DNA of 64,000 nucleotides from Dudresnaya verticillata (Eukaryota): positions 2,480,001 through 2,544,000 of the forward strand of contig OZ374565.1 of assembly GCA_977862235.1 (NCBI GenBank), read 5' to 3'. The translations under genes and the position numbers were made by a program. Below, piece by piece: positions 1-64,000 of the stretch; position 1 is the stretch's first letter, and every line of letters begins with the position of its first letter. The notes beneath the pieces were generated by a model, which made no database searches, was not told the DNA's origin, and saw nothing but the letters and a program-made list of their open reading frames with translations.

Positions 1-1174
1 CAGGGATGGTCGGCAGCGGTTCGGACTGGTCAAGCTCGTGGTCCGCGTCGGTTTGCGGTACGGACTGCGGGTGCTTGTCCTTCATGGACTGTATCACCGA
101 GTCTGTGGCTGGCGCGATTCCATCAGAGTCTAGAGCTGCTGCTGCCTTACTGTAGGCGCCCTCCTTTGCAAGGCGAAGGGCTCGTGAGGCATTGATACGG
201 CGTTGCTCTTCTGCGGAAGGCGCAGTCTGCTCACGGAATGTCGAGCCTTTCAAGGCCTGCTGCCATAGGGCGTCGTAATCCTTGAGTCCCCAGCGTCGGA
301 TTCGATCGCGGAAGGTGCCGATCGAGGACGCAGAGGTTGACGCGCTGGCCCTTGCACTCGCCGCGGGAGGATTGGACAAGACGGCTGCTGGAAAGAGCAG
401 GAATGCAGTGAGCTCTTTGGTGGCTTCCTGAGAGTTGGTTGCGTTCGTAAAAGCCCATACCGTCTTGGACAGTGCGTCGCGCACCTCGGCGCGGACGCGA
501 GACGGTATATGTGTGACCATAGGGATATGCGAGCGACAGATATCTTCGACCGGCGGCAGAAGCTGCCCTCCTGGACCCCGCGCAACGGGTGGGGTTTGCG
601 CAGTTGGTACCTCTCGAGTAGCAGGTACCGGTGCAGGAGGCGGCTCCTGGCTGTCCGGGATTCGTCGCGGGGCTGGCAGGATATCGTCCGCTGGCTCGCC
701 GTCCTCGGGTTGCGTCTCCGTGACCGCGACCAGAGCAGGAGTCTGTGATGGCGCGGCTACAGTTTCTTCACGGCTCGGTGTCGTCAATTGGTTGGACGGG
801 ACGTGGGAGAACGCCGGAGTGCGAGTGGCGGGACATGCGCTGCAATTCTTGTACCGCATACTGTACATGCCTTCACTGTTCATGCGGGAGCTACAGTGCG
901 TAGGCATGTACTTGTTGTGAGTCACACAGTACCATACTCCATAGTCCAGGAGCTGCTGCTTGAGAGACTCGATGTCGGTCCTCGTCGGTGGTCCTCGCCT
1001 GCCAGGAACATGCATCTTCCGCAGGTGCATGAGTAGCGCTTCTACAGTAGGCAGTGAGGACGACTGGCAGCCCAGAGGACAGCTGGTACTGTTTGTCGGG
1101 CGGTGTTTTGCCAAAGGCATAAAGCATGGAGAGAGCCATACCTTCGGCATGTCGGGGTGCTGCTGACCAATCAT
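1..1174 (-). CDS. N-terminal part of the retrotransposon polyprotein (partial; runs off window)
   Basis: ATG (cat at 1172-1174) and downstream sequence colinear with the 1162-aa ORF of the other copies. Confidence 0.85.
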   Translation of the reverse strand, partial: MIGQQHPDMPKVWLSPCFMPLAKHRPTNSTSCPLGCQSSSLPTVEALLMHLRKMHVPGRRGPPTRTDIESLKQQLLDYGVWYCVTHNKYMPTHCSSRMNSEGMYSMRYKNCSACPATRTPAFSHVPSNQLTTPSREETVAAPSQTPALVAVTETQPEDGEPADDILPAPRRIPDSQEPPPAPVPATREVPTAQTPPVARGPGGQLLPPVEDICRSHIPMVTHIPSRVRAEVRDALSKTVWAFTNATNSQEATKELTAFLLFPAAVLSNPPAASARASASTSASSIGTFRDRIRRWGLKDYDALWQQALKGSTFREQTAPSAEEQRRINASRALRLAKEGAYSKAAAALDSDGIAPATDSVIQSMKDKHPQSVPQTDADHELDQSEPLPTIP

Positions 1175-2224
1175 GGTTACAGCGCTGGGTAAGGTACCTG
1201 TAAAGGTCCTCTACAGTAGGTTCCCACGGGGCACAGACCTCCTAACCGGGACGCAAGCCTGTCGTCCGTCGTCAGTCTGTTCGGGACACCTCCAGAGGGT
1301 GCTACAGGTGGCCTTGCTGCGAGATGAAGGCCTCTTCGCAGCGTAGGGCGCGAGATCGCGCAATTTGCGCACGAGCTCGCGCAAAAGGGCGCGCGTGTTA
1401 GCGTTCGTGCGCGTAGACTTATCGGACGTTCCCTTCCCTGCCGCAGCTGAGAAGACTCTCTTCACTGCGGTCCTGTAACGCGCGGTACTTCTCGTTTGCA
1501 CAAGCTCTCAATGGGGTCGCAGAACCACCGTTTACCTGTGAGTGCCCGCAGGATTTTTGGCCTCCCCCGAAGGTTCGCTGGCAGGACGTTCGCTCGATCT
1601 TAGAAGGGGTGGTTTCAAAACAGGATCCACCAGGCTTAAGCCACGTTACCCCAACTTCGACGTTGCTTGGCACGTTTCTGCGATGAGCTTGTGGGTCACG
1701 AGCCGCCTACCACTCAAGGTCGAGGGTCTTTGGCGATTCCCACACTTGTAGGTCTCTCGGCACTTCCCGAAGGAAGATTTTACAGGACAAGCCTGGCCTT
1801 TACCAATCTGTCAGTTGAAGGGTGTGAAACCCCTCTGTCGACAGTCCACGGCAGCCTAGACAGAGTCTAGGCTGTGCCGGGTACAAGCAAAACGCGTACA
1901 GGGCCAGGGAAAGAAAGACAAGTCAGTGGGGCCCGGGCAAATTTCAAGGTGAGGGATCACCTTAAAAGTAAGCGCAAAATAGGAAACGCGTGACCGTCGG
2001 CGACGACGGCGGCGGCGACGGCGGCGACGACGACGGCGTCGCGGCGCAGATCGGCGGCGCGGAAAGAGACAAAAGTAGACCGCGCTCGCCCGCCCGCGAA
2101 GGTGAAGGGCTGAAAAACCCCGCACCGACGCGCCGTCGCGCGCTCGAACAGGCGGCACCGCCGCCGAAAAGATCGGTGCAGAACTTGTTGAGATATCCGC
2201 GAAACAAAAATTTCGGCAGATCGC
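1..2224 (-). mobile_element. 5S-targeting RLE-type non-LTR retrotransposon, copy 0 (5' half; cut by window edge)
   Basis: Near-identical to the 5' half of copy 1 (offset 4655); ends ...GGCAGATCGC, then TCAGT and the target duplication CTGAGGTGAG (2230-2239). Confidence 0.93.
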
Positions 2225-2340
2225 TCAGTCTGAGGTGAGTTCAACTTTATAACAGGTGACCATATTCTAATATTTGTCGACGTACAATCTACTGTAGTAT
2301 CACAACAAAGTTAAACCCCAACTCAAAACAACCTGCACAT

Positions 2341-5300
2341 CTACACCTCCTGTTGGATCCCTTCCATCAGGCACTTGACGTTGTTCTGCACCAGTCGCGC
2401 CGCGTGCCTGTGGAACAGAGCCGCTCGCGAAACACCGCGAGTTACCATGGCCCGAGAAGCCACGGTATCCGCCAACTCTTGCATATACTTGTGCGCCTCC
2501 GGGTGCCAGCCACCTAGTGTGGTCATCGGCACCGGCACAAGCCTTGCCCCCGGTCCGGCAGCCTGGATGAAGCCACGGTAAGTCCGCACCTTGTCAGCGT
2601 GGGCGTTCTTCAGCGTCCCTTGCGGGTTTGTTATGCAGCTGAGAATGCGTTGTTCTGACGACAGTGGATGACTGATTGTGACGTCCAGGTAGTCCGTTCC
2701 TCCTTCTGTTCCAAGCGCCTTGATGTCCGGCCGATCCAAGTGAGCCCCCACAGGGCGGGGCTCCACAATCGGGGTGCGTGTCGCACGTTTCAGATCCGAA
2801 GCCAGCAGACGAACCTGAGAGTCGTGGCGCCACGACCGAGGAGATCCGCTGTTCCGCATGCCGTTCGGACAAATCAGCAGATGGTCGCCGTGAACATCCA
2901 TCATCTTCTTGCACCCGGCCCGAGGACACTCCGTGTCGGGTTCCAGCAGTGGAATCCGACAGTAGAATCGAAGCCATACGCGGTAGTCCCGATCCGCAAT
3001 GTACGTCTTCATGCCTGGTGCCGGCTGGCACTTGAGCCAGTCCTTGGCGCCCGGCACGCCAAGGGAAGCTCGGAAAGCTTGCGTCCGCCTGTCCCCGAGC
3101 GGCAGCTCGGCTTGCACTTTCTTCAGAACCAACCGCGTCAAGTCCCGCTGGCGCGGGCACTCGTCGCTGTCGATCTTCTCCAGGTCCAGGGCATCCTCAC
3201 TATGGCACTTGGCGCTCCAGTCTTCGTGCGCTTCTACTGCAAAAGGATCGTCAGAAAGAGCAGTGTTCACAGAAGCGGGTAAGATAGAACGCAGTAAGTT
3301 GCGGGTCAGTGAAAGGGACGCCAAAAACGCGCTCGAGTTCATGTCGCCAGCTCCCGAAATACCGATTCCGAAGCTGGGCTCTTTCGTGCGCAGGGGAAGC
3401 TGAAGTTCGCGGAAGGTGTCCCTCGGTAGGACTCCTCCCACGAGCTTGCGCATGCAAGCCTCAATCTTCTGGTCGAAGAGCTCGGCGCCCTTTGCCGTGG
3501 CGGATGATGGAACTACTCGCAGCAGGTAGTTCAGCCGGCAGACTCCGGCACAGTTGCGGAGTAGAGTGATGGCCACGTGTAGGTCTTCTAGTCCCGAAAT
3601 TGCGTCCAGCAGGGGCTGGATGGACTCGACATGGCCATTCACGCTCTCCTCCATGTAGTTCTGCGTTCCAATCGGAGCCTGAAGTACTGTAGTGCCTTCT
3701 CCGTAGCTCTGCCCAAGATCCGACGGGTAGGCAGCGCAGTCTTCTGGGTCGGGTGCAGTAGGCCACCAAACAGTACACTTGTCCATGCGCAGGTGGAAGC
3801 CATAGCCCTTAGCTTCCTCGGAGTCAAAGAAGGACAGAACCTTCCTGAGTACGGCGTGTTTCGCCACGATGACGCCGTCGTCCAGGTAGAACAGTGACAG
3901 CAGCAAGTTGTTCGCCCCCTCCGCTTGCTGATTGCGGCCCGAGCGCCGCAGGTCGGCGGTGAGTTCCTTCAACTGTTTGATCAGTGCCTGCAGCACCAAA
4001 GCAAACAGTAACGGCCCGAGCGGGTCACCTTGCTGTACACCAGTGACACTCCGCAGTAGAGTGTCACCCATCCACAGGTGCGGGCCCTCAGAGTCATAAC
4101 AGTATCTGACCCACGGTAGTAGTTCAGGCATATGTCGGCGGACCTCCTTCATGAATGCTTTGCGGCTGACAAGGTTGAAGGCATTCTTCAAGTCCACTTG
4201 TAGCAACCCGTAGGACTTGTCATGGCCGTGAGACTTCTGCAGCTTCCGGACCGCGTGTACAATGGCTTCTGTGCCGCCCGAGGTTGCGACCCCGAGCTGA
4301 AGCGGTTCGAGGTATGCCTTGGCCTTGGGAGCGACTCTGGTCATGAGCATAGAGCTCACGAGTCGTCGGATTGTCTCTCCTACAGCAATGGGGCGGACAC
4401 CGCCGGTGCGCTTCTTCAGAGCCGTGAGAGGAGCGCTGGCAATCCAAGGCGACAGCTCCGCAGGTCCTGCGCCGCTGGCCAGCACGTTGACCATTTTGGT
4501 GAGCCCGCCAAGCAGGCCCGTGTGCTCGTGAGTGGTCGGGACTGAGAGCAGTTCCTGCAGATGGGTCGGTGATAGTCCTGTTCCCCCCGAGGCCGAAGCC
4601 CGGGGGAACTTGGCCACTGCTTTTCGTACTTCGTCGGCTGTGAAAGGCACGAAGTCAGGCATGGTCGGCAGCGGTTCGGACTGGTCAAGCTCGTGGTCCG
4701 CGTCGGTTTGCAGTACGGACTGCGGGTGCTTGTCCTTCATGGACTGTATCACAGAGTCTGTGGCTGGGGCGATTCCATCAGAGTCTAGAGCTGCTGCTGC
4801 CTTACTGTAGGCGCCCTCCTTTGCAAGGCGAAGGGCTCGTGAGGCATTGATACGGCGTTGCTCTTCTGCGGAAGGCGCAGTCTGCTCACGGAATGTCGAG
4901 CCCTTCAAGGCCTCCTGCCATAGGGCGTCGTAATCCTTGAGTCCCCAGCGTCGGATTCGATCGCGGAAGGTGCCGATCGAGGACGCAGAGGTTGACGCGC
5001 TGGCCCTTGCACTCGCGGCGGGAGGATTGGACAAGACGGCTGCTGGAAAAAGCAGGAATGCAGTGAGCTCTTTGGTGGCTTCCTGAGAGTTGGTTGCGTT
5101 CGTAAAAGCCCATACCGTCTTGGACAGTGCGTCGCGCACCTCGGCGCGGACGCGAGACGGTATATGTGTGACCATAGGGATATGCGAGCGACAGATGTCT
5201 TCGACCGCCGGCAGAAGCTGCCCTCCTGGACCCCGCGCAACGGGTGGGGTTTGCGCAGTTGGTACCTCTCGAGTAGCAGGTACCGGTGCAGGAGGCGGCT

Positions 5301-5829
5301 CCTGGCTGTCCGGGATTCGTCGCGGGGCTGGCAGGATATCGTCCGCTGGCTCGCCGTCCTCGGGTTGCGTCTCCGTGACCGCGTCCAGAGCAGGAGACTG
5401 TGATGGCGCGGCTACAGTTTCTTCACGGCTCGGTGTCGTCAATTGGTTGGACGGGACGTGGGAGAACGCCGGAGTGCGAGTAGCGGGACATGCGCTGCAA
5501 TTCTTGTACCGCATACTGTACATGCCTTCACTGTTCATGCGGGAGCTACAGTGGGTGGGCATGTACTTGTTGTGAGTCACACAGTACCATACTCCATAGT
5601 CCAGGAGCTGCTGCTTGAGAGGCTCGATGTCGGTCCTCGTCGGTGGTCCTCGCCTGCCAGGAACATGCATCTTCCGCAGGTGCATGAGTAGCGCTTCTAC
5701 AGTAGGCAGTGAGGACGACTGGCAGCCCAGAGGACAGCTGGTACTGTTTGTCGGGCGGTGTTTTGCCGAAGGCATAAAGCATGGAGAGAGCCATACCTTC
5801 GGCATGTCGGGGTGCTGCTGACCAATCAT
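2341..5829 (-). CDS. 1162-aa polyprotein: CCHH zinc finger, reverse transcriptase, CCHC knuckle, restriction-like endonuclease (CRE-clade-like)
   Basis: C32-x3-C-x13-H-x4-H; RT motifs GGVRPIAVGE, QLGV, VDLKNAFN, GVQQGDPLGPLLF, YLDDG; C-x4-C-x9-H-x3-C followed by RHD, RPD, DVT and a downstream K. Confidence 0.95.
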   Translation of the reverse strand: MIGQQHPDMPKVWLSPCFMPSAKHRPTNSTSCPLGCQSSSLPTVEALLMHLRKMHVPGRRGPPTRTDIEPLKQQLLDYGVWYCVTHNKYMPTHCSSRMNSEGMYSMRYKNCSACPATRTPAFSHVPSNQLTTPSREETVAAPSQSPALDAVTETQPEDGEPADDILPAPRRIPDSQEPPPAPVPATREVPTAQTPPVARGPGGQLLPAVEDICRSHIPMVTHIPSRVRAEVRDALSKTVWAFTNATNSQEATKELTAFLLFPAAVLSNPPAASARASASTSASSIGTFRDRIRRWGLKDYDALWQEALKGSTFREQTAPSAEEQRRINASRALRLAKEGAYSKAAAALDSDGIAPATDSVIQSMKDKHPQSVLQTDADHELDQSEPLPTMPDFVPFTADEVRKAVAKFPRASASGGTGLSPTHLQELLSVPTTHEHTGLLGGLTKMVNVLASGAGPAELSPWIASAPLTALKKRTGGVRPIAVGETIRRLVSSMLMTRVAPKAKAYLEPLQLGVATSGGTEAIVHAVRKLQKSHGHDKSYGLLQVDLKNAFNLVSRKAFMKEVRRHMPELLPWVRYCYDSEGPHLWMGDTLLRSVTGVQQGDPLGPLLFALVLQALIKQLKELTADLRRSGRNQQAEGANNLLLSLFYLDDGVIVAKHAVLRKVLSFFDSEEAKGYGFHLRMDKCTVWWPTAPDPEDCAAYPSDLGQSYGEGTTVLQAPIGTQNYMEESVNGHVESIQPLLDAISGLEDLHVAITLLRNCAGVCRLNYLLRVVPSSATAKGAELFDQKIEACMRKLVGGVLPRDTFRELQLPLRTKEPSFGIGISGAGDMNSSAFLASLSLTRNLLRSILPASVNTALSDDPFAVEAHEDWSAKCHSEDALDLEKIDSDECPRQRDLTRLVLKKVQAELPLGDRRTQAFRASLGVPGAKDWLKCQPAPGMKTYIADRDYRVWLRFYCRIPLLEPDTECPRAGCKKMMDVHGDHLLICPNGMRNSGSPRSWRHDSQVRLLASDLKRATRTPIVEPRPVGAHLDRPDIKALGTEGGTDYLDVTISHPLSSEQRILSCITNPQGTLKNAHADKVRTYRGFIQAAGPGARLVPVPMTTLGGWHPEAHKYMQELADTVASRAMVTRGVSRAALFHRHAARLVQNNVKCLMEGIQQEV

Positions 5830-6569
5830 GGTTACAGCGCTGGGTAAGGTACCTGTAAAGGTCCTCTACAGTAGGTTCCCACGGGGCACAGGCCTCCTAA
5901 CCGGGACGCAAGCCTGTCGTCCGTCGTCAGTCTGTTCGGGACACCTCCAGAGGGTGCTACAGGTGGCCTTGCTGCGAGATGAGGGCCTCTTCGCAGCGTA
6001 GGGCGCGAGATCGCGCACTTTGCGCACGAGCTCGCGCAAAAGGGCGCGCGTGTTAGCGTTCGTGCGCGCAGAGTTATCGGACGTTCCCTTCCCTGCCGCA
6101 GCTGAGAAGACTCTCTTCACTGCGGTCCTGTAACGCGCGGTACTTCTCGTTTGCACAAGCTCTCAATGGGGTCGCAGAACCACCGTTTACCTGTGAGTGC
6201 CCACAGGATTTTTGGCCTCCCCCGAAGGTTCGCTGGCAGGACGTTCGCTCGATCTTAGAAGGGGTGGTTTCAAAACAGGATCCACCAGGCTTAAGCCACG
6301 TTACCCCAACTTCGACGTTGCTTGGCACGTTTCTGCGATGAGCTTGTGGGTCACGAGCCGCCTACCACTCAAGGTCGAGGGTCTTTGGCGATTCCCACAC
6401 TTGTAGGTCTCTCGGCACTTCCCGAAGGAAGATTTTACAGGACAAGCCTGGCCTTTACCAATCTGTCAGTTGAAGGGTGTGAAACCCCTCTGTCGACAGT
6501 CCACGGCAGCCTAGACAGAGTCTAGGCTGTGCCGGGTACAAGCAAAACGCGTACAGGGCCAGGGAAAGA

Positions 6570-6615
6570 AAGATAAGTCAGTGGGGCCCGGGCAAATTTC
6601 AAGGTGAGGGATCAC
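6570..6615 (+). promoter_or_regulatory. 5S internal-control-region/target mimic in the element's 5' region (also 1915-1960, 12445-12490, 17129-17174, 21813-21858, 26469-26514, 31128-31173, 35793-35838, 43984-44029, 53436-53481, 58096-58141)
   Basis: AAGATAAGTC-N22-AGGTGAGGGATCAC, with the same blocks and spacing as 5S +51..+60 and +83..+96. Function is inferred. Confidence 0.6.
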
Positions 6616-6652
6616 CTTAAAAGTAAGCGCAAAATAGGAAACGCGTGACCGT

Positions 6653-6693
6653 CGGCGACGACGGCGGCGGCGACGGCGGCGACGACGACGGCG
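6653..6693 (+). repeat. Mixed (GGC/GAC)n trinucleotide tract in the element's 5' region (in every copy with an intact 5' end)
   Basis: CGGCGACGACGGCGGCGGCGACGGCGGCGACGACGACGGCG. Confidence 0.8.
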
Positions 6694-6905
6694 TCGCGGC
6701 GCAGATCGGCGGCGCGGAAAGAGACAAAAGTAGACCGCGCTCGCCCGCCCGCGAAGGTGAAGGGCTGAAAAACCCCGCACCGACGCGCCGTCGCGCGCTC
6801 GAACAGGCGGCACCGCCGCCGAAAAGATCGGTGCAGAACTTGTTGAGATATCCGCGAAACAAAAATTTCGGCAGATCGCTGAGGGAGTACTCAGTCTGAG
6901 GTGAG

Positions 6906-6936
6906 GGATCACTCTGGAATCGCCAGTGCCGAATGT
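6906..6936 (+). rRNA. 5S rRNA: 5S rRNA gene, 3' fragment (+90..+120), interrupted
   Basis: GGATCACTCTGGAATCGCCAGTGCCGAATGT; terminal GCCGAATGT pairs perfectly with 5' ACATTCGGC (helix I); followed by T-runs. Confidence 0.93.
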
Positions 6937-6948
6937 TTTTATTTTTTT
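6936..6948 (+). terminator. RNA polymerase III terminator of 5S (T5-A-T7); also 38477-38489 and 61822-61834
   Basis: TTTTTATTTTTTT immediately after the helix I 3' strand. Confidence 0.85.
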
Positions 6949-8025
6949 GCACCTCATTCCTTCCTCCCCGCCGCCCTCTGCGTACATTGCTGCCTTGCAT
7001 ACCTCTCCCACAGAATCCCCGACCCACTGCCTCTGTACAGCGTATTCTTTTCACTCGCACTTTTCCCCTTTTCTTGTAAGTGGGAGGGAGTCTGAGAGTG
7101 TTTGCAGGTGTCTAGGGGTTGTTTAGGGTTAGGTCTAGGGTTAGTTTGGTTACTGTGGTACGCGAGGGGCATGATATTGGGAGGGTAAAGGGTCTAGTGT
7201 TGGTGCATGGAATGAATCATGGTGGTGGAAGGAATGGATCAGTGTGGTGGATGAATTGGATTTAGGGACATAGAATTGGATTAGATTTAGTACCCAGAAG
7301 ATTGGATCAAGGATCACCACAATCGGATCAAGTCTGGTGGCTGGGGTGAGGGTGGCTTGGACGTTTGTGCTCATAACTTTGGAACGGCTGGGGCTAGGGA
7401 GCTGCTCAGTAGCTGAATCGAAGCGTCTCGTTGCTGCGCATTGCGTAGCGCTCTTACCCTCCTAAATCGACTTTTTGGCGCGTTTCTATGGTGCAAAACG
7501 TCCCCACGGGCCGTCGGCAGCTTTTGAGCAGATCAAATAGGGGTTTGGGGCATGTATGGTTATGGGTGGGTTTAGGGGTGTTAGGGATGTGTCATTTTAA
7601 CGCGTTTAGGAGTGTAGGGAGTGGGAATGAAAGTAGTAAGGATGAGGAAATGGAAAGGGAAGGATGAGAAAGTATAGTACAATGCAGTAATACAAATCAC
7701 GGAATGCATCAGGTTGGGATCCAATAAGGGTGGATGGATTGGATCAACGGAAGTCAAGGCGTTATAGGATTGGATCTAGGGGCTCTGTAAATTAGATTGG
7801 GTGCTGGTTTCATTGAACCAAGGGGTCAGAACGTCCATGAGCTGGTTGACTGTATTTATATTGAATCCTGCGTTTAGAGTAAATGGTATACGGTTATGGG
7901 TCATTACTTTAATGCTCCACGTGTACACTACAGTCGGATGGACATTGGACGCAGGAGTCTTTAGTCGATGACGGGGAGTGCAGTTGATGGCGCATTTAAA
8001 TAGGGGTACGGCGGGAACAGCAAGC
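6937..8025 (+). repeat. 5S rDNA intergenic spacer (1089 bp)
   Basis: Lies between a 5S 3' end and the next 5S 5' end; recurs apparently unchanged four times. Confidence 0.9.
7994..8001 (+). promoter_or_regulatory. TATA-like element at -32..-25 of 5S (also 39535-39542, 48987-48994, 62880-62887)
   Basis: ATTTAAAT in a GC-richer context, at the usual upstream position for 5S genes. Confidence 0.6.
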
Positions 8026-8114
8026 ACATTCGGCCATACTACGCAGACATGCTCCGTATCCCATCCCGAACTGCGAAGATAAGTCTCGTCAGGCTGGTTT
8101 AGTACTGAGGTGAG
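8026..8114 (+). rRNA. 5S rRNA: 5S rRNA gene, 5' fragment (+1..+89), interrupted; its 3' part lies at 38447-38477
   Basis: ACATTCGGCCATAC...ATCCCATCCCGAACTGCGAAGATAAG...TTAGTACTGAGGTGAG; conserved 5S motifs GGCCATAC, CCCATC-CGAAC, TAGTACT; 89+31 = 120 nt. Confidence 0.93.
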
Positions 8115-12754: not shown

Positions 12755-12798
12755 GAGGGGTTCTCCGGGTACTGAGGTGAGGACTGAGGTCAGGTGAG

Positions 12799-17438: not shown

Positions 17439-17482
17439 GAGGGGTTCTCCGGGTACTGAGGTGAGGACTGAGGTCAGGTGAG

Positions 17483-47300: not shown

Positions 47301-47953
47301 TGGACCCCGCGCAACGGGTGGGGTTTGCGCAGTTGGTACCTCTCGAGTAGCAGGTACCGGTGCAGGAGGCGGCTCCTGGCTGTCCGGGATTCGTCGCGGG
47401 GCTGGCAGGATATCGTCCGCTGGCTCGCCGTCCTCGGGTTGCGTCTCCGTGACCGCGTCCAGAGCAGGAGTCTGTGATGGCGCGGCTACAGTTTCTTCAC
47501 GGCTCGGTGTCGTCAATTGGTTGGACGGGACGTGGGAGAACGCCGGAGTGCGAGTAGCGGGACATGCGCTGCAATTCTTGTACCGCATACTGTACATGCC
47601 TTCACTGTTCATGCGGGAGCTACAGTGGGTAGGCATGTACTTGTTGTGAGTCACACAGTACCATACTCCATAGTCCAGGAGCTGCTGCTTGAGAGGCTCG
47701 ATGTCGGTCCTCGTCGGTGGTCCTCGCCTGCCAGGAACATGCATCTTCCGCAGGTGCATGAGTAGCGCTTCTACAGTAGGCAGTGAGGACGACTGGCAGC
47801 CCAGAGGACAGCTGGTACTGTTTGTCGGGCGGTGTTTTGCCGAAGGCATAAAGCATGGAGAGAGCCATACCTTCGGCATGTCGGGGTGCTGCTGACCAAT
47901 CATGGTTACAGCGCTGGGTAAGGTACCTGTAAAGGTCCTCTACAGTAGGTTCC
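44313..47953 (-). mobile_element. Retrotransposon copy 10: intact ORF but ~1 kb of the 5' region missing; fused to 5S spacer at TTCC
   Basis: ...TACAGTAGG-TTCC-TTCCTCCCCG...; no target duplication or 5S 3' half at this junction. Confidence 0.93.
44415..47903 (-). CDS. 1162-aa RT/RLE polyprotein (variant ACTRK, EAWS, CQIP, KKKM)
   Basis: ORF track. Confidence 0.93.
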   Translation of the reverse strand: MIGQQHPDMPKVWLSPCFMPSAKHRPTNSTSCPLGCQSSSLPTVEALLMHLRKMHVPGRRGPPTRTDIEPLKQQLLDYGVWYCVTHNKYMPTHCSSRMNSEGMYSMRYKNCSACPATRTPAFSHVPSNQLTTPSREETVAAPSQTPALDAVTETQPEDGEPADDILPAPRRIPDSQEPPPAPVPATREVPTAQTPPVARGPGGQLLPAVEDICRSHIPMVTHIPSRVRAEVRDALSKTVWAFTNATNSQEATKELTAFLLFPAAVLSNPPAASARASASTSASSIGTFRDRIRRWGLKDYDALWQEALKGSTFREQTAPSAEEQRRINASRALRLAKEGAYSKAAAALDSDGIAPATDSVIQSMKDKHPQSVPETDADHELDQSEPLPTMPDFVPFTADEVRKAVAKFPRASASGGTGLSPTHLQELLSVPTTHEHTGLLGGLTKMVNVLASGAGPAELSPWIASAPLTALKKRTGGVRPIAVGETIRRLVSSMLMTRVAPKAKAYLEPLQLGVATSGGTEAIVHAVRKLQKSHGHDKSYGLLQVDLKNAFNLVSRKAFMKEVRRHMPELLPWVRYCYDSEGPHLWMGDTLLRSVTGVQQGDPLGPLLFALVLQALIKQLKELTADLRRSGRNQQAEGANNLLLSLFYLDDGVIVAKHAVLRKVLSFFDSEEAKGYGFHLRMDKCTVWWPTAPDPEDCAAYPSDLGQSYGEGTTVLQAPIGTQNYMEESVNGHVESIQPLLDAISGLEDLHVAITLLRNCAGVCRLNYLLRVVPSSATAKGAELFDQKIEACTRKLVGGVLPRDTFRELQLPLRTKEPSFGIGISGAGDMNSSAFLASLSLTRNLLRSILPASVNTALSDDPFAVEAHEAWSAKCHSEDALDLEKIDSDECPRQRDLTRLVLKKVQAELPLGDRRTQAFRASLGVPGAKDWLKCQPAPGMKTYIADRDYRVWLRFYCQIPLLEPDTECPRAGCKKKMDVHGDHLLICPNGMRNSGSPRSWRHDSQVRLLASDLKRATRTPIVEPRPVGAHLDRPDIKALGTEGGTDYLDVTISHPLSSEQRILSCITNPQGTLKNAHADKVRTYRGFIQAAGPGARLVPVPMTTLGGWHPEAHKYMQELADTVASRAMVTRGVSRAALFHRHAARLVQNNVKCLMEGIQQEV

Positions 47954-53745: not shown

Positions 53746-53764
53746 GAGGGGGTACTGAGGTGAG

Positions 53765-56700: not shown

Positions 56701-58405
56701 TAGGGATATGCGAGCGACAGATGTCTTCGACCGCCGGCAGAAGCTGCCCTCCTGGACCCCGCGCAACGGGTGGGGTTTGCGCAGTTGGTACCTCTCGAGT
56801 AGCAGGTACCGGTGCAGGAGGCGGCTCCTGGCTGTCCGGGATTCGTCGCGGGGCTGGCAGGATATCGTCCGCTGGCTCGCCGTCCTCGGGTTGCGTCTCC
56901 GTGACCGCGTCCAGAGCAGGAGACTGTGATGGCGCGGCTACAGTTTCTTCACGGCTCGGTGTCGTCAATTGGTTGGACGGGACGTGGGAGAACGCCGGAG
57001 TGCGAGTAGCGGGACATGCGCTGCAATTCTTGTACCGCATACTGTACATGCCTTCACTGTTCATGCGGGAGCTACAGTGGGTGGGCATGTACTTGTTGTG
57101 AGTCACACAGTACCATACTCCATAGTCCAGGAGCTGCTGCTTGAGAGGCTCGATGTCGGTCCTCGTCGGTGGTCCTCGCCTGCCAGGAACATGCATCTTC
57201 CGCAGGTGCATGAGTAGCGCTTCTACAGTAGGCAGTGAGGACGACTGGCAGCCCAGAGGACAGCTGGTACTGTTTGTCGGGCGGTGTTTTGCCGAAGGCA
57301 TAAAGCATGGAGAGAGCCATACCTTCGGCATGTCGGGGTGCTGCTGACCAATCATGGTTACAGCGCTGGGTAAGGTACCTGTAAAGGTCCTCTACAGTAG
57401 GTTCCCACGGGGCACAGACCTCCTAACCGGGACGCAAGCCTGTCGTCCGTCGTCAGTCTGTTCGGGACACCTCCAGAGGGTGCTACAGGTGGCCTTGCTG
57501 CGAGATGAGGGCCTCTTCGCAGCGTAGGGCGCGAGATCGCGCACTTTGCGCACGAGCTCGCGCAAAAGGGCGCGCGTGTTAGCGTTCGTGCGCGCAGAGT
57601 TATCGGACGTTCCCTTCCCTGCCGCAGCTGAGAAGACTCTCTTCACTGCGGTCCTGTAACGCGCGGTACTTCTCGTTTGCACAAGCTCTCAATGGGGTCG
57701 CAGAACCACCGTTTACCTGTGAGTGCCCACAGGATTTTTGGCCTCCCCCGAAGGTTCGCTGGCAGGACGTTCGCTCGATCTTAGAAGGGGTGGTTTCAAA
57801 ACAGGATCCACCAGGCTTAAGCCACGTTACCCCAACTTCGACGTTGCTTGGCACGTTTCTGCGATGAGCTTGTGGGTCACGAGCCGCCTACCACTCAAGG
57901 TCGAGGGTCTTTGGCGATTCCCACACTTGTAGGTCTCTCGGCACTTCCCGAAGGAAGATTTTACAGGACAAGCCTGGCCTTTACCAATCTGTCAGTTGAA
58001 GGGTGTGAAACCCCTCTGTCGACAGTCCACGGCAGCCTAGACAGAGTCTAGGCTGTGCCGGGTACAAGCAAAACGCGTACAGGGCCAGGGAAAGAAAGAT
58101 AAGTCAGTGGGGCCCGGGCAAATTTCAAGGTGAGGGATCACCTTAAAAGTAAGCGCAAAATAGGAAACGCGTGACCGTCGGCGACGACGGCGGCGGCGAC
58201 GGCGGCGACGACGACGGCGTCGCGGCGCAGATCGGCGGCGCGGAAAGAGACAAAAGTAGACCGCGCTCGCCCGCCCGCGAAGGTGAAGGGCTGAAAAACC
58301 CCGCACCGACGCGCCGTCGCGCGCTCGAACAGGCGGCACCGCCGCCGAAAAGATCGGTGCAGAACTTGTTGAGATATCCGCGAAACAAAAATTTCGGCAG
58401 ATCGC
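53765..58405 (-). mobile_element. Full-length retrotransposon, copy 12
   Basis: 3' half shares the variants of copy 10; 5' part is the common type. Confidence 0.95.
53867..57355 (-). CDS. 1162-aa RT/RLE polyprotein (variant)
   Basis: ORF track. Confidence 0.95.
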   Translation of the reverse strand: MIGQQHPDMPKVWLSPCFMPSAKHRPTNSTSCPLGCQSSSLPTVEALLMHLRKMHVPGRRGPPTRTDIEPLKQQLLDYGVWYCVTHNKYMPTHCSSRMNSEGMYSMRYKNCSACPATRTPAFSHVPSNQLTTPSREETVAAPSQSPALDAVTETQPEDGEPADDILPAPRRIPDSQEPPPAPVPATREVPTAQTPPVARGPGGQLLPAVEDICRSHIPMVTHIPSRVRAEVRDALSKTVWAFTNATNSQEATKELTAFLLFPAAVLSNPPAASARASASTSASSIGTFRDRIRRWGLKDYDALWQEALKGSTFREQTAPSAEEQRRINASRALRLAKEGAYSKAAAALDSDGIAPATDSVIQSMKDKHPQSVPQTDADHELDQSEPLPTMPDFVPFTADEVRKAVAKFPRASASGGTGLSPTHLQELLSVPTTHEHTGLLGGLTKMVNVLASGAGPAELSPWIASAPLTALKKRTGGVRPIAVGETIRRLVSSMLMTRVAPKAKAYLEPLQLGVATSGGTEAIVHAVRKLQKSHGHDKSYGLLQVDLKNAFNLVSRKAFMKEVRRHMPELLPWVRYCYDSEGPHLWMGDTLLRSVTGVQQGDPLGPLLFALVLQALIKQLKELTADLRRSGRNQQAEGANNLLLSLFYLDDGVIVAKHAVLRKVLSFFDSEEAKGYGFHLRMDKCTVWWPTAPDPEDCAAYPSDLGQSYGEGTTVLQAPIGTQNYMEESVNGHVESIQPLLDAISGLEDLHVAITLLRNCAGVCRLNYLLRVVPSSATAKGAELFDQKIEACTRKLVGGVLPRDTFRELQLPLRTKEPSFGIGISGAGDMNSSAFLASLSLTRNLLRSILPASVNTALSDDPFAVEAHEAWSAKCHSEDALDLEKIDSDECPRQRDLTRLVLKKVQAELPLGDRRTQAFRASLGVPGAKDWLKCQPAPGMKTYIADRDYRVWLRFYCQIPLLEPDTECPRAGCKKKMDVHGDHLLICPNGMRNSGSPRSWRHDSQVRLLASDLKRATRTPIVEPRPVGAHLDRPDIKALGTEGGTDYLDVTISHPLSSEQRILSCITNPQGTLKNAHADKVRTYRGFIQAAGPGARLVPVPMTTLGGWHPEAHKYMQELADTVASRAMVTRGVSRAALFHRHAARLVQNNVKCLMEGIQQEV

Positions 58406-58421
58406 TGAGTACTGAGGTGAG

Positions 58422-59437
58422 TTCAACTTTATAACAGGTGACCATATTCTAATATTTGTCGACGTACAATCTACTGTAGTATCACAACAAAGTTAAACCC
58501 CAACTCAAAACAACCTGCACATCTACACCTCCTGTTGGATCCCTTCCATCAGGCACTTGACGTTGTTCTGCACCAGTCGCGCCGCGTGCCTGTGGAACAG
58601 AGCCGCTCGCGAAACACCGCGAGTTACCATGGCCCGAGAAGCCACGGTATCCGCCAACTCTTGCATATACTTGTGCGCCTCCGGGTGCCAGCCACCTAGT
58701 GTGGTCATCGGCACCGGCACAAGCCTTGCCCCCGGTCCGGCAGCCTGGATGAAGCCACGGTAAGTCCGCACCTTGTCAGCGTGGGCGTTCTTCAGCGTCC
58801 CTTGCGGGTTTGTTATGCAGCTGAGAATGCGTTGTTCTGACGACAGTGGATGACTGATTGTGACGTCCAGGTAGTCCGTTCCTCCTTCTGTTCCAAGCGC
58901 CTTGATGTCCGGCCGATCCAAGTGAGCCCCCACCGGGCGGGGCTCCACAATCGGGGTGCGTGTCGCACGTTTCAGATCCGAAGCCAGCAGACGAACCTGA
59001 GAGTCGTGGCGCCACGACCGAGGAGATCCGCTGTTCCGCATGCCGTTCGGACAAATCAGCAGATGGTCGCCGTGAACATCCATCATCTTCTTGCACCCGG
59101 CCCGAGGACACTCCGTGTCGGGTTCCAGCAGTGGAATCCGACAGTAGAATCGAAGCCATACGCGGTAGTCCCGATCCGCAATGTACGTCTTCATGCCTGG
59201 TGCCGGCTGGCACTTGAGCCAGTCCTTGGCGCCCGGCACGCCAAGGGAAGCTCGGAAAGCTTGCGTCCGCCTGTCCCCGAGCGGCAGCTCGGCTTGCACT
59301 TTCTTCAGAACCAACCGCGTCAAGTCCCGCTGGCGCGGGCACTCGTCGCTGTCGATCTTCTCCAGGTCCAGGGCATCCTCACTATGGCACTTGGCGCTCC
59401 AGTCTTCGTGCGCTTCTACTGCAAAAGGATCGTCAGA
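58422..59437 (-). mobile_element. Strongly 5'-truncated retrotransposon, copy 13 (~1.0 kb)
   Basis: Stops at GGATCGTCAGA, then TCGTC and AGTACTGAGGTGAG. Confidence 0.93.
58523..59437 (-). pseudogene. C-terminal ORF remnant (CCHC and endonuclease only)
   Basis: The 266-aa ORF call matches the polyprotein C-terminus. Confidence 0.85.
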
Positions 59438-59456
59438 TCGTCAGTACTGAGGTGAG

Positions 59457-61782
59457 TTCAACTTTATAACAGGTGACCATATTCTAATATTTGTCGACGT
59501 ACAATCTACTGTAGTATCACAACAAAGTTAAACCCCAACTCAAAACAACTTGCACATCTACACCTCCTGTTGGATCCCTTCCATCAGGCACTTGACGTTG
59601 TTCTGCACCAGTCGCGCCGCGTGCCTGTGGAACAGAGCCGCTCGCGAAACACCGCGAGTTACCATGGCCCGAGAAGCCACGGTATCCGCCAACTCTTGCA
59701 TATACTTGTGCGCCTCCGGGTGCCAGCCACCTAGTGTGGTCATCGGCACCGGCACAAGCCTTGCCCCCGGTCCGGCAGCCTGGATGAAGCCACGGTAAGT
59801 CCGCACCTTGTCAGCGTGGGCGTTCTTCAGCGTCCCTTGCGGGTTTGTTATGCAGCTGAGAATGCGTTGTTCTGACGACAGTGGATGACTGATTGTGACG
59901 TCCAGGTAGTCCGTTCCTCCTTCTGTTCCAAGCGCCTTGATGTCCGGCCGATCCAAGTGAGCCCCCACCGGGCGGGGCTCCACAATCGGGGTGCGTGTCG
60001 CACGTTTCAGATCCGAAGCCAGCAGACGAACCTGAGAGTCGTGGCGCCACGACCGAGGAGATCCGCTGTTCCGCATGCCGTTCGGACAAATCAGCAGATG
60101 GTCGCCGTGAACATCCATCATCTTCTTGCACCCGGCCCGAGGACACTCCGTGTCGGGTTCCAGCAGTGGAATCCGACAGTAGAATCGAAGCCATACGCGG
60201 TAGTCCCGATCCGCAATGTACGTCTTCATGCCTGGTGCCGGCTGGCACTTGAGCCAGTCCTTGGCGCCCGGCACGCCAAGGGAAGCTCGGAAAGCTTGCG
60301 TCCGCCTGTCCCCGAGCGGCAGCTCGGCTTGCACTTTCTTCAGAACCAACCGCGTCAAGTCCCGCTGGCGCGGGCACTCGTCGCTGTCGATCTTCTCCAG
60401 GTCCAGGGCATCCTCACTATGGCACTTGGCGCTCCAGTCTTCGTGCGCTTCTACTGCAAAAGGATCGTCAGAAAGAGCAGTGTTCACAGAAGCGGGTAAG
60501 ATAGAACGCAGTAAGTTGCGGGTCAGTGAAAGGGACGCCAAAAACGCGCTCGAGTTCATGTCGCCAGCTCCCGAAATACCGATTCCGAAGCTGGGCTCTT
60601 TCGTGCGCAGGGGAAGCTGAAGTTCGCGGAAGGTGTCCCTCGGTAGGACTCCTCCCACGAGCTTGCGCATGCAAGCCTCAATCTTCTGGTCGAAGAGCTC
60701 GGCGCCCTTTGCCGTGGCGGATGATGGAACTACTCGCAGCAGGTAGTTCAGCCGGCAGACTCCGGCACAGTTGCGGAGTAGAGTGATGGCCACGTGTAGG
60801 TCTTCTAGTCCCGAAATTGCGTCCAGCAGGGGCTGGATGGACTCGACATGGCCATTCACGCTCTCCTCCATGTAGTTCTGCGTTCCAATCGGAGCCTGAA
60901 GTACTGTAGTGCCTTCTCCGTAGCTCTGCCCAAGATCCGACGGGTAGGCAGCGCAGTCTTCTGGGTCGGGTGCAGTAGGCCACCAAACAGTACACTTGTC
61001 CATGCGCAGGTGGAAGCCATAGCCCTTAGCTTCCTCGGAGTCAAAGAAGGACAGAACCTTCCTGAGTACGGCGTGTTTCGCCACGATGACGCCGTCGTCC
61101 AGGTAGAACAGTGACAGCAGCAAGTTGTTCGCCCCCTCCGCTTGCTGATTGCGGCCCGAGCGCCGCAGGTCGGCGGTGAGTTCCTTCAACTGTTTGATCA
61201 GTGCCTGCAGCACCAAAGCAAACAGTAACGGCCCGAGCGGGTCACCTTGCTGTACACCAGTGACACTCCGCAGTAGAGTGTCACCCATCCACAGGTGCGG
61301 GCCCTCAGAGTCATAACAGTATCTGACCCACGGTAGTAGTTCAGGCATATGTCGGCGGACCTCCTTCATGAATGCTTTGCGGCTGACAAGGTTGAAGGCA
61401 TTCTTCAAGTCCACTTGTAGCAACCCGTAGGACTTGTCATGGCCGTGAGACTTCTGCAGCTTCCGGACCGCGTGTACAATGGCTTCTGTGCCGCCCGAGG
61501 TTGCGACCCCGAGCTGAAGCGGTTCGAGGTATGCCTTGGCCTTGGGAGCGACTCTGGTCATGAGCATAGAGCTCACGAGTCGTCGGATTGTCTCTCCTAC
61601 AGCAATGGGGCGGACACCGCCGGTGCGCTTCTTCAGAGCCGTGAGAGGAGCGCTGGCAATCCAAGGCGACAGCTCCGCAGGTCCTGCGCCGCTGGCCAGC
61701 ACGTTGACCATTTTGGTGAGCCCGCCAAGCAGGCCCGTGTGCTCGTGAGTGGTCGGGACTGAGAGCAGTTCCTGCAGATCGC
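59457..61782 (-). mobile_element. 5'-truncated retrotransposon, copy 14 (same breakpoint as copy 8)
   Basis: Identical junction CCTGCAGATCGCTGAGGTGAGGGATC. Confidence 0.93.
59558..61779 (-). pseudogene. N-terminally truncated polyprotein ORF (RT core and RLE)
   Basis: 779-aa chimeric ORF call. Confidence 0.85.
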
Positions 61783-61822: not shown

Positions 61823-62911
61823 TTTTATTTTTTTGCACCTCATTCCTTCCTCCCCGCCGCCCTCTGCGTACATTGCTGCCTTGCATACCTCTCCCACAGA
61901 ATCCCCGACCCACTGCCTCTGTACAGCGTATTCTTTTCACTCGCACTTTTCCCCTTTTCTTGTAAGTGGGAGGGAGTCTGAGAGTGTTTGCAGGTGTCTA
62001 GGGGTTGTTTAGGGTTAGGTCTAGGGTTAGTTTGGTTACTGTGGTACGCGAGGGGCATGATATTGGGAGGGTAAAGGGTCTAGTGTTGGTGCATGGAATG
62101 AATCATGGTGGTGGAAGGAATGGATCAGTGTGGTGGATGAATTGGATTTAGGGACATAGAATTGGATTAGATTTAGTACCCAGAAGATTGGATCAAGGAT
62201 CACCACAATCGGATCAAGTCTGGTGGCTGGGGTGAGGGTGGCTTGGACGTTTGTGCTCATAACTTTGGAACGGCTGGGGCTAGGGAGCTGCTCAGTAGCT
62301 GAATCGAAGCGTCTCGTTGCTGCGCATTGCGTAGCGCTCTTACCCTCCTAAATCGACTTTTTGGCGCGTTTCTATGGTGCAAAACGTCCCCACGGGCCGT
62401 CGGCAGCTTTTGAGCAGATCAAATAGGGGTTTGGGGCATGTATGGTTATGGGTGGGTTTAGGGGTGTTAGGGATGTGTCATTTTAACGCGTTTAGGAGTG
62501 TAGGGAGTGGGAATGAAAGTAGTAAGGATGAGGAAATGGAAAGGGAAGGATGAGAAAGTATAGTACAATGCAGTAATACAAATCACGGAATGCATCAGGT
62601 TGGGATCCAATAAGGGTGGATGGATTGGATCAACGGAAGTCAAGGCGTTATAGGATTGGATCTAGGGGCTCTGTAAATTAGATTGGGTGCTGGTTTCATT
62701 GAACCAAGGGGTCAGAACGTCCATGAGCTGGTTGACTGTATTTATATTGAATCCTGCGTTTAGAGTAAATGGTATACGGTTATGGGTCATTACTTTAATG
62801 CTCCACGTGTACACTACAGTCGGATGGACATTGGACGCAGGAGTCTTTAGTCGATGACGGGGAGTGCAGTTGATGGCGCATTTAAATAGGGGTACGGCGG
62901 GAACAGCAAGC
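61823..62911 (+). repeat. 5S rDNA intergenic spacer
   Basis: Copy of 6937-8025. Confidence 0.9.
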
Positions 62912-63000
62912 ACATTCGGCCATACTACGCAGACATGCTCCGTATCCCATCCCGAACTGCGAAGATAAGTCTCGTCAGGCTGGTTTAGTACTGAGGTGAG
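62912..63000 (+). rRNA. 5S rRNA: 5S rRNA gene, 5' fragment (+1..+89)
   Basis: Identical to 8026-8114. Confidence 0.93.
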
Positions 63001-64000
63001 TTCAACTTTATAACAGGTGATCATATTCTAATATTTGTCGACGTACAATCTACTGTAGTATCACAACAAAGTTAAACCCCAACTCAAACAACTTGCACAT
63101 CTACACCTCCTGTTGGATCCCTTCCATCAGGCACTTGACGTTGTTCTGCACCAGTCGCGCCGCGTGCCTGTGGAACAGAGCCGCTCGCGAAACACCGCGA
63201 GTTACCATGGCCCGAGAAGCCACGGTATCCGCCAACTCTTGCATATACTTGTGCGCCTCCGGGTGCCAGCCACCTAGTGTGGTCATCGGCACCGGCACAA
63301 GCCTTGCCCCCGGTCCGGCAGCCTGGATGAAGCCACGGTAAGTCCGCACCTTGTCAGCGTGGGCGTTCTTCAGCGTCCCTTGCGGGTTTGTTATGCAGCT
63401 GAGAATGCGTTGTTCTGACGACAGTGGATGACTGATTGTGACGTCCAGGTAGTCCGTTCCTCCTTCTGTTCCAAGCGCCTTGATGTCCGGCCGATCCAGG
63501 TGAGCCCCCACAGGGCGGGGCTCCACAATCGGGGTGCGTGTCGCACGTTTCAGATCCGAAGCCAGCAGACGAACCTGAGAGTCGTGGCGCCACGACCGAG
63601 GAGATCCGCTGTTCCGCATGCCGTTCGGACAAATCAGCAGATGGTCGCCGTGAACATCCATCATCTTCTTGCACCCGGCCCGAGGACACTCCGTGTCGGG
63701 TTCCAGCAGTGGAATCCGACAGTAGAATCGAAGCCATACGCGGTAGTCCCGATCCGCAATGTACGTCTTCATGCCTGGTGCCGGCTGGCACTTGAGCCAG
63801 TCCTTGGCGCCCGGCGCGCCAAGGGAAGCTCGGAAAGCTTGCGTCCGCCTGTCCCCGAGCGGCAGCTCGGCTTGCACTTTCTTCAGTACCAACCGCGTCA
63901 AGTCCCTCTGGCGTGGGCACTCGTCGCTGTCGATCTTCTCCAGGTCCAGAGCATCCTCACTATGGCACTTGGCGCTCCAGTCTTCGTGCGCTTCTACTGC
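63001..64000 (-). mobile_element. Retrotransposon copy 15, 3' part (cut by window edge; several private SNPs)
   Basis: 3' UTR and C-terminal ORF joined to 5S +89. Confidence 0.93.
63101..64000 (-). CDS. C-terminal part of the polyprotein (partial)
   Basis: ORF track, 266-aa call. Confidence 0.8.
   Translation of the reverse strand, partial: AVEAHEDWSAKCHSEDALDLEKIDSDECPRQRDLTRLVLKKVQAELPLGDRRTQAFRASLGAPGAKDWLKCQPAPGMKTYIADRDYRVWLRFYCRIPLLEPDTECPRAGCKKMMDVHGDHLLICPNGMRNSGSPRSWRHDSQVRLLASDLKRATRTPIVEPRPVGAHLDRPDIKALGTEGGTDYLDVTISHPLSSEQRILSCITNPQGTLKNAHADKVRTYRGFIQAAGPGARLVPVPMTTLGGWHPEAHKYMQELADTVASRAMVTRGVSRAALFHRHAARLVQNNVKCLMEGIQQEV

What the first reader, a model, noticed from the sequence alone, without database searches (positions are those of the whole stretch)
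1..64000. A CRE-like non-LTR retrotransposon that inserts site-specifically into the 5S rRNA gene (+89/+90), antisense to it
Seen: joining the right end of the 1.2-kb unit (8026-8114) to its left end (6906-6936) rebuilds a 120-nt 5S rRNA with perfect 9-bp helix I, a TATA-like box at about -30 and a T-run terminator. All 15 visible element 3' ends abut ...GGTGAG (5S +89, in the helix IV/loop D, box C region). Established: RLE-type non-LTR elements are often target-specific. CRE-clade members I know target spliced-leader genes (CRE1/2, SLACS, CZAR) or telomeric regions (MoTeR, Cnl1), R2/R4/R5 target 28S, and the 5S-specific family I know (Mutsu) is a Tx1/APE-type element. Inference: an RLE/CRE-type 5S-specific family may be undescribed. 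It would be a compact single-ORF integrase for a conserved multicopy locus.
Basis: partly seen in the sequence, partly recalled or inferred. Interest (0 to 1): 0.92.

Follow-up and report, generated by a model that had tools for sequence, protein, structure and literature searches.

The report
Retrotransposon stacking inside 5S rRNA genes
A compact jumping gene with a reverse transcriptase and a restriction-like nuclease motif sits backwards at one exact base of the 5S ribosomal RNA gene in every copy seen here, and likely piles up there because each landing rebuilds the site; this pairing of enzyme type and target appears to be undescribed.

Summary
Confirmed. 92% of the window is 16 copies of one 4.64-kb single-ORF non-LTR retrotransposon (two N-terminal zinc fingers, RT, CCHC knuckle, restriction-like endonuclease), antisense in a 5S rDNA array. 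All 15 visible 3' ends follow 5S base +89, in the GNRA loop D. 14 of 15 5' ends carry 7-14 nt of duplicated target, in 11 different junction sequences. Eleven ORFs are intact, pN/pS 0.18. Best reading: target-primed reverse transcription at +89/+90; the duplication rebuilds a site beside the 5S 3' half, so copies stack head to tail (3 junctions support this, 2 go against), and recombination then copies blocks. New here: the element's 5' UTR holds a 14-nt copy of the target centred on the cut, in a hairpin, and no copy has inserted there. Limits: only 4 ends touch a full 5S half (3 haplotypes), no genome was held, and CRE membership rests on motifs, not on a tree with named members. Nine literature searches found 5S targeting only by Mutsu (two-ORF) and Dada-5S. 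Repbase and the Fell 2025 survey were not seen. The scan noted APE-type 5S LINEs on other DNA.

The parts
8026..8114 (+). 5S rRNA gene, +1..+89 (same piece at 39567-39655, 49019-49107, 62912-63000)
   Evidence: Rfam RF00001; blastn of the unit, 100% identical
6906..6936 (+). 5S rRNA gene, +90..+120 (also 38447-38477, 61792-61822; missing at 47950)
   Evidence: X1 loose end
6937..6948 (+). T-run, Pol III terminator-like
   Evidence: sequence
7995..8002 (+). TATA-like box at -31..-24 of 5S
   Evidence: sequence; function inferred
6906..8114 (+). 1209-bp 5S repeat unit opened at +89/+90; copies at 38447-39655, 47950-49107 (first 51 nt lost), 61792-63000
1..2223 (-). element e01, 5' half (3' end outside the window)
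2240..6878 (-). element e02, full length 4639 bp, reference copy; 3' UTR 101 nt without poly(A), 5' UTR about 1.05 kb
8115..36101 (-). stack of six full-length elements e03-e08 (8115-12753, 12799-17437, 17483-22121, 22139-26777, 26798-31436, 31463-36101)
36112..38434 (-). e09, 5'-truncated at 2323 nt; junction repeats 18 nt of its own left flank, including the end of e08
39656..47953 (-). e10 (39656-44292, full length) and e11 (44313-47953, 3640 nt, ORF intact; junction, 5S 3' half and terminator deleted at a 4-nt microhomology)
49108..61779 (-). e12 (49108-53744, same as e10), e13 (53765-58404), e14 (58422-59437, truncated), e15 (59457-61779, same truncation and junction as e09)
63001..64000 (-). 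e16, 3' part (cut by the window end), a further haplotype at a full 5S half
8216..11740 (-). ORF of e03, 1174 aa stop to stop (first ATG at codon 13, 11702-11704); intact in 11 copies
11363..11611 (-). two N-terminal zinc-finger motifs (C2H2, aa 44-67; C/H/C/C, aa 95-126)
   Evidence: kept in P0003, P0004, P0006, P0007
9641..10291 (-). reverse transcriptase core (RVT_1, aa 484-700; QGDP, YLDD)
   Evidence: Pfam 61.4 bits
8558..8803 (-). CCHC knuckle and restriction-like endonuclease core (C-x4-C-x9-H-x3-C-x13-RHD-x19-E-x9-RPD-x13-D)
   Evidence: aligns to the R2 RLE
6879..6905 (+). 5' junction of e02: extra bases plus target duplication, 16 nt of which equal the e01/e02 junction (2224-2239)
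12754..12798 (+). 45-nt junction with a 13-nt target duplication followed by further partial target copies; repeated exactly at 17438-17482
6597..6622 (-). 5' UTR hairpin (11-bp stem on the element strand) holding a 14-mer identical to 5S +83..+96 (6602-6615); present in all 11 copies that reach this far

Best explanation
This is a single-ORF non-LTR retrotransposon of the restriction-like-endonuclease group, likely CRE-related, whose copies sit antisense at base +89/+90 of 5S rRNA genes, and which likely inserts there by target-primed reverse transcription and stacks head to tail because each insertion rebuilds the site. SHOWN: architecture, orientation, the fixed 3' junction, 7-14-nt target duplications, variable 5' junctions, 5' truncations, intact ORFs under purifying selection. 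INFERRED by analogy with R2: (1) the protein nicks the 5S sense strand after G89, in loop D/box C; (2) the free 3' end primes cDNA on the element RNA's 3' end, with no poly(A) left in the DNA; (3) a second nick about 10-18 nt upstream on the other strand gives the duplication; (4) the 5' junction forms by annealing, with short added or slipped bases; (5) the duplication plus the untouched +90..+120 half is a new target, so the next copy lands on the 5' side of the last. Recognition would need more than the 14-nt core, probably bases beyond +96. Recombination and gene conversion then duplicate and mix blocks. As the element is antisense to 5S it would need its own promoter or read-through from the copy upstream. 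Interrupted 5S genes are probably dead; intact ones must lie outside this window.
For: 15 of 15 3' ends at +89, and 14 of 15 5' ends with 7-14 nt of 5S ending at +89. 11 distinct 5' junction sequences; 11 5' ends stop at the same base and 4 are truncated. Stacking test on 13 elements (e11 has no junction; e01 and e16 are cut): in e02, e06 and e09 the right junction matches the element's own left flank over 16, 17 and 18 nt, non-5S letters included, against 10, 14 and 10 nt for pristine 5S. Three haplotypes (e03, e10/e12, e16) sit at full 5S halves. 11 intact ORFs, 10 of them distinct; 31 synonymous and 17 non-synonymous variants, pN/pS 0.18, and 0.11 from residue 400 on. RT by Pfam; RLE motifs align to R2; the AF2 model (pLDDT 84.7) matches R2 structures best, at 15-17% identity, ahead of L1. 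The 14-nt core in the 5' UTR is unused in 11 of 11 copies. Near-identical element and spacer pieces occur in run X1.
Against: In the stacking test 7 of 13 are neutral, 1 is a whole duplicate (e04), and 2 match pristine 5S better (e05 14 vs 7 nt; e13 14 vs 13 nt). Four junction pairs are identical and several copies are mosaics, so part of the array is recombination, not insertion. Only 4 ends touch a full 5S half, and the window is inside the array, so specificity is ascertained. No genome was held. Clade members with flanking DNA are not in 5S: L002 with 6 kb on both sides, L036 with a 326-nt 3' flank. No X1 contig bridges a junction. No biochemistry.
Confidence: 0.8

Rival explanations
1. 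The family prefers 5S but is not restricted to it; most copies lie elsewhere at short look-alike sites, and this window shows only the 5S share.
For: The window is ascertained on the array; no genome. Related elements L002 and L036 have no 5S in their flanks. An earlier scan note describes such a pattern for an APE LINE (unchecked).
Against: The 14-nt exact core in the element's own 5' UTR is unused in 11 of 11 copies, so a short look-alike does not suffice. L002 and L036 are only 39-45% identical and lie in a different subclade.
Confidence: 0.2
2. One or a few insertions were amplified by unequal crossing-over and gene conversion, so the 15 junctions are not independent events.
For: Identical junctions e03/e04, e05/e13, e09/e15, e10/e12; e10 and e12 are the same haplotype; e13 is a mosaic. 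The four spacer copies are 100% identical.
Against: 11 different junction sequences, three different truncation points, and junctions that copy the altered flank of the neighbour are hard to get from recombination alone.
Confidence: 0.12
3. Junction letters are inherited with the RNA's 5' end (transcripts starting in the upstream junction, or template jumps between RNAs), and new copies land next to the 5S 5' half, not next to the 3' half.
For: The same extra bases recur at the 5' ends of e03, e04, e07, e10 and e12; e05 carries a 14-nt pristine duplication that its left flank lacks.
Against: The truncated e09 repeats 18 nt of its left flank, including the last 8 nt of e08, which a truncated cDNA cannot inherit from the RNA's 5' end. 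An internal deletion at a 6-nt microhomology could give the same picture.
Confidence: 0.15
4. The element belongs to another RLE clade (NeSL/Utopia-like) and not to CRE.
For: Clade members P0006, P0127 and P0007 carry a Ulp1 protease between the zinc fingers and the RT, as NeSL and one Utopia family do (PMC4640811, passages).
Against: RLE spacing is close to the published SLACS/CRE consensus. The next relatives are sponge and plant proteins at about 30%. The YLDD and RPIAVGE motifs are CRE-type by my recall, not by a call.
Confidence: 0.15
5. The array is an assembly artefact.
For: Some copies and junctions are exact duplicates.
Against: 94 variable sites in structured haplotypes, an excess of synonymous changes and 11 junction types.
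Confidence: 0.03

Closest known systems
CRE-clade elements: CRE1/CRE2, SLACS, CZAR, Cnl1, MoTeR1, FoTeR
   Same: Single long ORF with N-terminal C2H2 fingers, RT and C-terminal CCHC-RHD-E-RPD-D endonuclease; FoTeR lengths 4.3-7.3 kb with 3.5-kb ORFs; multi-copy arrays at one target, as in MoTeR (PMC12857005 and PMC7367193, passages).
   Different: Their targets are telomeres (from those passages) and spliced-leader genes (miniexon titles, otherwise recalled). This one is in 5S, with clear 7-14-nt duplications. Its C-to-H and C-to-RHD spacers are longer (9 and 13) than the consensus (7-8 and 9-10).
R2 (and R4, R5, R8, R9) rDNA-specific RLE elements
   Same: RT plus RLE in one ORF, an rRNA gene as target, TPRT; best structural matches.
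   Different: 15-17% identity; target is Pol III-transcribed 5S, antisense, so no co-transcription with the target. No HDV-like ribozyme was found at the 5' end. R4, R5, R8 and R9 details are recalled.
Mutsu (zebrafish 5S-specific LINE)
   Same: Non-LTR element interrupting 5S genes in tandem arrays, many copies intact (PMC5340908, passages).
   Different: Two ORFs, about 5.5 kb, poly(A), first-described sites about 20 nt from the 5S 5' end. APE/Tx1-type endonuclease (recalled; the Tx1 tree legend in PMC4494074 lists a 5S target).
Dada-5S (fish DNA transposon)
   Same: Targets a fixed site in 5S genes (PMC8869645, passages and section 4.2).
   Different: DDE DNA transposon, no RT; its stated target sequence differs from the one here.
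NeSL and Utopia
   Same: RLE elements that target small-RNA genes; some have a Ulp1 protease, as relatives of this element do.
   Different: Targets are U2 snRNA genes and spliced-leader genes (recalled); Utopia rarely shows target duplications.

Membership tests
RLE-group non-LTR retrotransposon | Non-LTR-type RT domain | tested here: met
   RVT_1 61.4 bits; profile hits R2 at 70 bits and L1 at 28
RLE-group non-LTR retrotransposon | C-terminal CCHC knuckle and PD-(D/E)xK endonuclease; no APE domain | tested here: met
   motif at aa 980-1061, aligned to the R2 RLE; Pfam shows no APE family
RLE-group non-LTR retrotransposon | No LTRs; fixed 3' end, variable or truncated 5' ends, variable target duplications | tested here: met
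RLE-group non-LTR retrotransposon | TPRT activity | not testable with these tools
   needs biochemistry
CRE clade | RT phylogeny groups with CRE1/2, SLACS, CZAR, Cnl1, MoTeR | not testable with these tools
   no named member was returned; the tree has no named reference
CRE clade | Endonuclease consensus C-x1-3-C-x7-8-H-x3-4-C-x9-10-RH(D/N)-x19-33-E-x9-21-(R/K)PD-x12-14-(D/E) | tested here: inconclusive
   all residues present; spacers 4, 9, 3, 13, 19, 9, 13: four within range, three longer by 1-3; the motif is shared with other RLE clades
CRE clade | N-terminal zinc fingers in a single ORF | tested here: met
CRE clade | Known targets: spliced-leader genes or telomeric repeats | tested here: not met
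   target is 5S +89/+90; target is not a clade criterion, it marks the variant
R2 clade | Insertion in 28S rDNA | tested here: not met
   Rfam finds only 5S in the window
R2 clade | 5' self-cleaving HDV-like ribozyme | tested here: inconclusive
   no Rfam hit and no descriptor match, but the descriptor had no positive control
Mutsu | Two ORFs and a poly(A) tail | tested here: not met
   one ORF, no poly(A)
Target-specific family (Kojima criterion: over 20% of flanks are one sequence type) | Genome-wide share of copies at the target | not testable with these tools
   15 of 15 in the window, but no genome held
5S rRNA gene (RF00001) | Covariance-model hit above the gathering score | tested here: met
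   4 hits, 51.8-54.3 bits, carried by the +1..+89 part; rejoined form checked by helix tests only

The most novel reading that the evidence does not exclude
An undescribed algal CRE-related lineage that targets 5S loop D, and whose 5' UTR carries a working copy of its own target: the 14-nt sequence centred on the cut, held in an RNA hairpin, serves as a guide that pairs with the nicked strand, or as a target mimic or operator that the protein binds. Target choice would then be partly written in the element's RNA and could be reprogrammed.
Probability: 0.12. Interest if true: 0.92.

Novelty: new variant of a known kind. Interest (0 to 1): 0.7.

Why it matters
It adds the 5S gene to the targets of restriction-like-endonuclease retrotransposons and would be a third independent arrival at 5S after Mutsu and Dada-5S, by a different enzyme. 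RLE elements are being developed as RNA-delivered gene-insertion tools, and the native-target platforms listed in a 2026 review all use 28S rDNA (PMC13708176, table passage). A compact 1160-aa enzyme with 11 intact copies, a precise 3' junction without poly(A) and a site that survives insertion offers a second conserved multicopy landing site. No CRE-type protein came up among solved structures. The junction series gives a natural read-out of second-strand cleavage and of the minimal target, and the target copy in the 5' UTR is a direct test of whether element RNA helps to choose the site.

Tried and rejected
No whole genome was held, so copies outside 5S could not be counted. Rfam on 20 of the 80 and on 19 of 19 found no RNA family; blastn and nhmmer of the 5S against all 80 gave only chance-level 17-20-mers. 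No relative closer than 48% came with DNA, so conservation of the target is untested. Sequencing runs: one low-share DNA holder, no RNA holder listed; neither laying bridged a junction. HDV-like ribozyme: none by Rfam or by my own descriptor without a positive control. The 3' UTR folds no better than shuffles (z -0.64); the first 311 nt of the 5' region do (z -3.2). No upstream ORF joins the main ORF in frame. A homologue search with the zinc-finger region alone found nothing; the short-protein search gave 6 hits and no algal or CRE name. The ESM Atlas did not complete. My recollection that a Chlamydomonas Dualen LINE targets 5S was not borne out by the passages read in PMC9940879 and PMC9977147. 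Fell et al. 2025 is not held; two reviews say it screened 4,464 animal assemblies and included CRE elements, and neither contains the term '5S r'. The FoTeR supplements gave accession numbers only. The full-length Rfam alignment across the element's 3' end was rejected as mimicry: helix I fails there.
Full report
Layout. blastn of one element and one spacer against the window resolves it into 16 copies of a 4639-bp element on the minus strand (98.9-100% identical; 10 complete, 4 shortened at the 5' end, 2 cut by the window edges) and 4 copies of a 1209-bp unit (100% identical; one lacks its first 51 nt). Elements cover 58,913 of 64,000 bases. No whole genome was held.

The target. Rfam finds RF00001 at 8026, 39567, 49019 and 62912 (51.8-54.3 bits, gathering 38) and nothing else up to E 0.1. 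These are the right ends of the 1209-bp units. The true match is +1..+89; the rest of the alignment is forced onto the element. The left end of the unit supplies +90..+120: together the halves give 120 nt with a 9/9-bp helix I, helix V, and helix IV closed by a GGGA loop at +89..+92, whereas the 5S half with the element end has no helix I. The folding energy alone is weak evidence (z -1.5). The rejoined sequence was not scanned with Rfam, and the short 3' piece gave no hit on its own. Two contigs of another organism's 5S in run X1 continue from 8114 with letters matching 6906-6928 at 21 of 23, which fixes the join independently. So the unit is a 5S repeat opened between G89 and G90, inside loop D and, by established knowledge, inside box C of the internal promoter. 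The window has no uninterrupted 5S gene.

The element. One ORF of 1174 aa stop to stop, first ATG at codon 13, intact in 11 copies. It has two N-terminal zinc-finger motifs, a disordered linker, an RT (Pfam RVT_1, 61.4 bits) and a C-terminal C-x4-C-x9-H-x3-C-x13-RHD-x19-E-x9-RPD-x13-D endonuclease. A profile of 25 relatives hits R2 proteins best among solved structures (70 bits; L1 28) and aligns the endonuclease to that of R2. The AlphaFold model (pLDDT 84.7) matches seven R2 structures first, at 15-17% identity. Across the 11 intact ORFs pN/pS is 0.18 (31 synonymous, 17 non-synonymous), 0.11 from residue 400 on and 0.57 in the first 215 residues. The 3' UTR is 101 nt and ends without poly(A).

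Junctions. All 15 visible 3' ends follow GGTGAG. Four follow a whole 5S half, and these are three haplotypes (e03, e10 = e12, e16). Eleven follow a short remnant behind another element. Of 15 visible 5' ends, 14 carry 7-14 nt of 5S ending at +89, mostly with extra bases; one (e11) has lost the junction, the 5S 3' half and the terminator at a 4-nt microhomology. There are 11 distinct junction sequences. One 45-nt junction holds a 13-nt duplication followed by further partial target copies, which may record repeated cutting without insertion (inference).

Stacking. If a new copy lands in the site rebuilt by the previous duplication, its own duplication should copy the altered flank. Of 13 elements that could be tested, three do so (e02, e06, e09: 16, 17, 18 nt against 10, 14, 10 for pristine 5S), seven are neutral, one is a whole duplicate of its neighbour, and two match pristine 5S better (e05, e13). 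I read this as sequential insertion next to the 5S 3' half overlaid by recombination, at about 0.6 for this step. Recombination is plain from four identical junction pairs and mosaic haplotypes. MoTeR arrays are described with both routes: most have differing spacers, one arose by amplification (PMC7367193, passages).

Target copy in the 5' UTR. The longest match between element and 5S is a 14-mer equal to +83..+96, seven bases on each side of the insertion point, 263-276 nt from the element's 5' end. It is present in all 11 copies that reach that far, and the best match spanning the cut in 300 shuffles was 12 (the hairpin makes this null generous). It lies in an 11-bp stem whose U-G pair forms only on the element strand. 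No copy has inserted there, so the core alone is not a sufficient target. It may be a relic of an old junction, a protein-binding site, or a guide; nothing here decides.

Relatives and host. A search with residues 400-1174 gave 401 hits, of which 120 were listed; 24 stand apart at 36-58% identity, then sponge, plant and unnamed proteins near 30%. In an RT tree of 59 sequences, none dropped, these 24 with P0001, P0127 and four loci form one clade (support 1.00), with P0001 next to P0002 and P0003. The tree is midpoint-rooted and has no named reference. Three members carry a Ulp1 protease. The clade members with flanks, L002 and L036, show no 5S, so the target may belong to a subclade only. The host is probably a red alga: this rests on my recall of florideophyte 5S sequences and of the gene-name style of P0014, not on a call. 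Run X1 holds three short contigs on the RT region with 0-3 differences and three on the spacer with 1-6, at depth 2-3, without bridging a junction.

What is in print. Nine searches found no RLE or CRE element in 5S. Seen as passages: Mutsu, two ORFs, poly(A), site near the 5S 5' end (PMC5340908); Dada-5S (PMC8869645, section 4.2 in full); a review table of TEs in rDNA whose shown rows give Mutsu and Rex3 for 5S (PMC10946416); Jockey-like LINEs in Tribolium 5S arrays (PMC11202950); RLE clades and Ulp1 (PMC4640811); the CRE endonuclease consensus (PMC12857005; supplements searched); Tx1 targets (PMC4494074); R2 tool reviews (PMC13708176, PMC13199778, PMC13586686, PMC13580325); PMC3747384, PMC9940879 and PMC9977147 gave nothing relevant. 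Not seen: Fell et al. 2025 and its supplements, which mined RLE elements including CRE from animal assemblies and which I recall, unverified, may list 5S among targets; Repbase and Dfam; subscription papers. I put the chance that an RLE-type 5S family at this site is undescribed at about 0.65. The scan's earlier notes hold two APE-type 5S LINEs and a fungal CRE element in rDNA on other genomes, and no match to this protein.

Verdict. It works like R2/CRE; it is not R2 or Mutsu. New variant of a known kind; interest 0.70.

Noticed in passing
window 6597-6622 and the same place in 10 other copies: 14-nt copy of the target centred on the cut, inside a 5' UTR hairpin whose wobble pair fits the element strand; never used as an insertion site.
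   Followed up: partly
L036:2940-3030: A relative ends in nearly the same TGTTATAAAG-type 3' motif and is followed by about 66 nt that align to our 5' UTR positions 140-208 (score 50; best of 300 mononucleotide and 200 dinucleotide shuffles 42 and 44). It may be a head-to-tail array and a conserved 5' UTR element; no 5S lies between.
   Followed up: partly
proteins P0006, P0127, P0007: Members of the same clade carry a Ulp1 (Peptidase_C48) domain between the zinc fingers and the RT; P0127 is 2541 aa with about 1000 further N-terminal residues without a Pfam match.
   Followed up: partly
window 47950-47953: A deletion at a TTCC microhomology removes about 1 kb of 5' UTR, the junction, the 5S 3' half and the terminator but leaves the ORF intact.
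   Followed up: yes
window 12754-12798 and 17438-17482: Junction with several partial target copies in a row, possibly traces of repeated nicking without insertion.
   Followed up: no
window 6640-6880: The 5' end has GC-rich trinucleotide-like repeats, three AGATCG motifs, and folds better than shuffles (z -3.2); a promoter or structured leader is possible.
   Followed up: no
window 31463-36101 (e08): This copy has C95Y in the second zinc-finger motif.
   Followed up: no
L081-L099: Eukaryote-type RLE retrotransposon ORFs lie in contigs of prokaryote MAGs, several from one MAG; probably host contamination of the bins.
   Followed up: no
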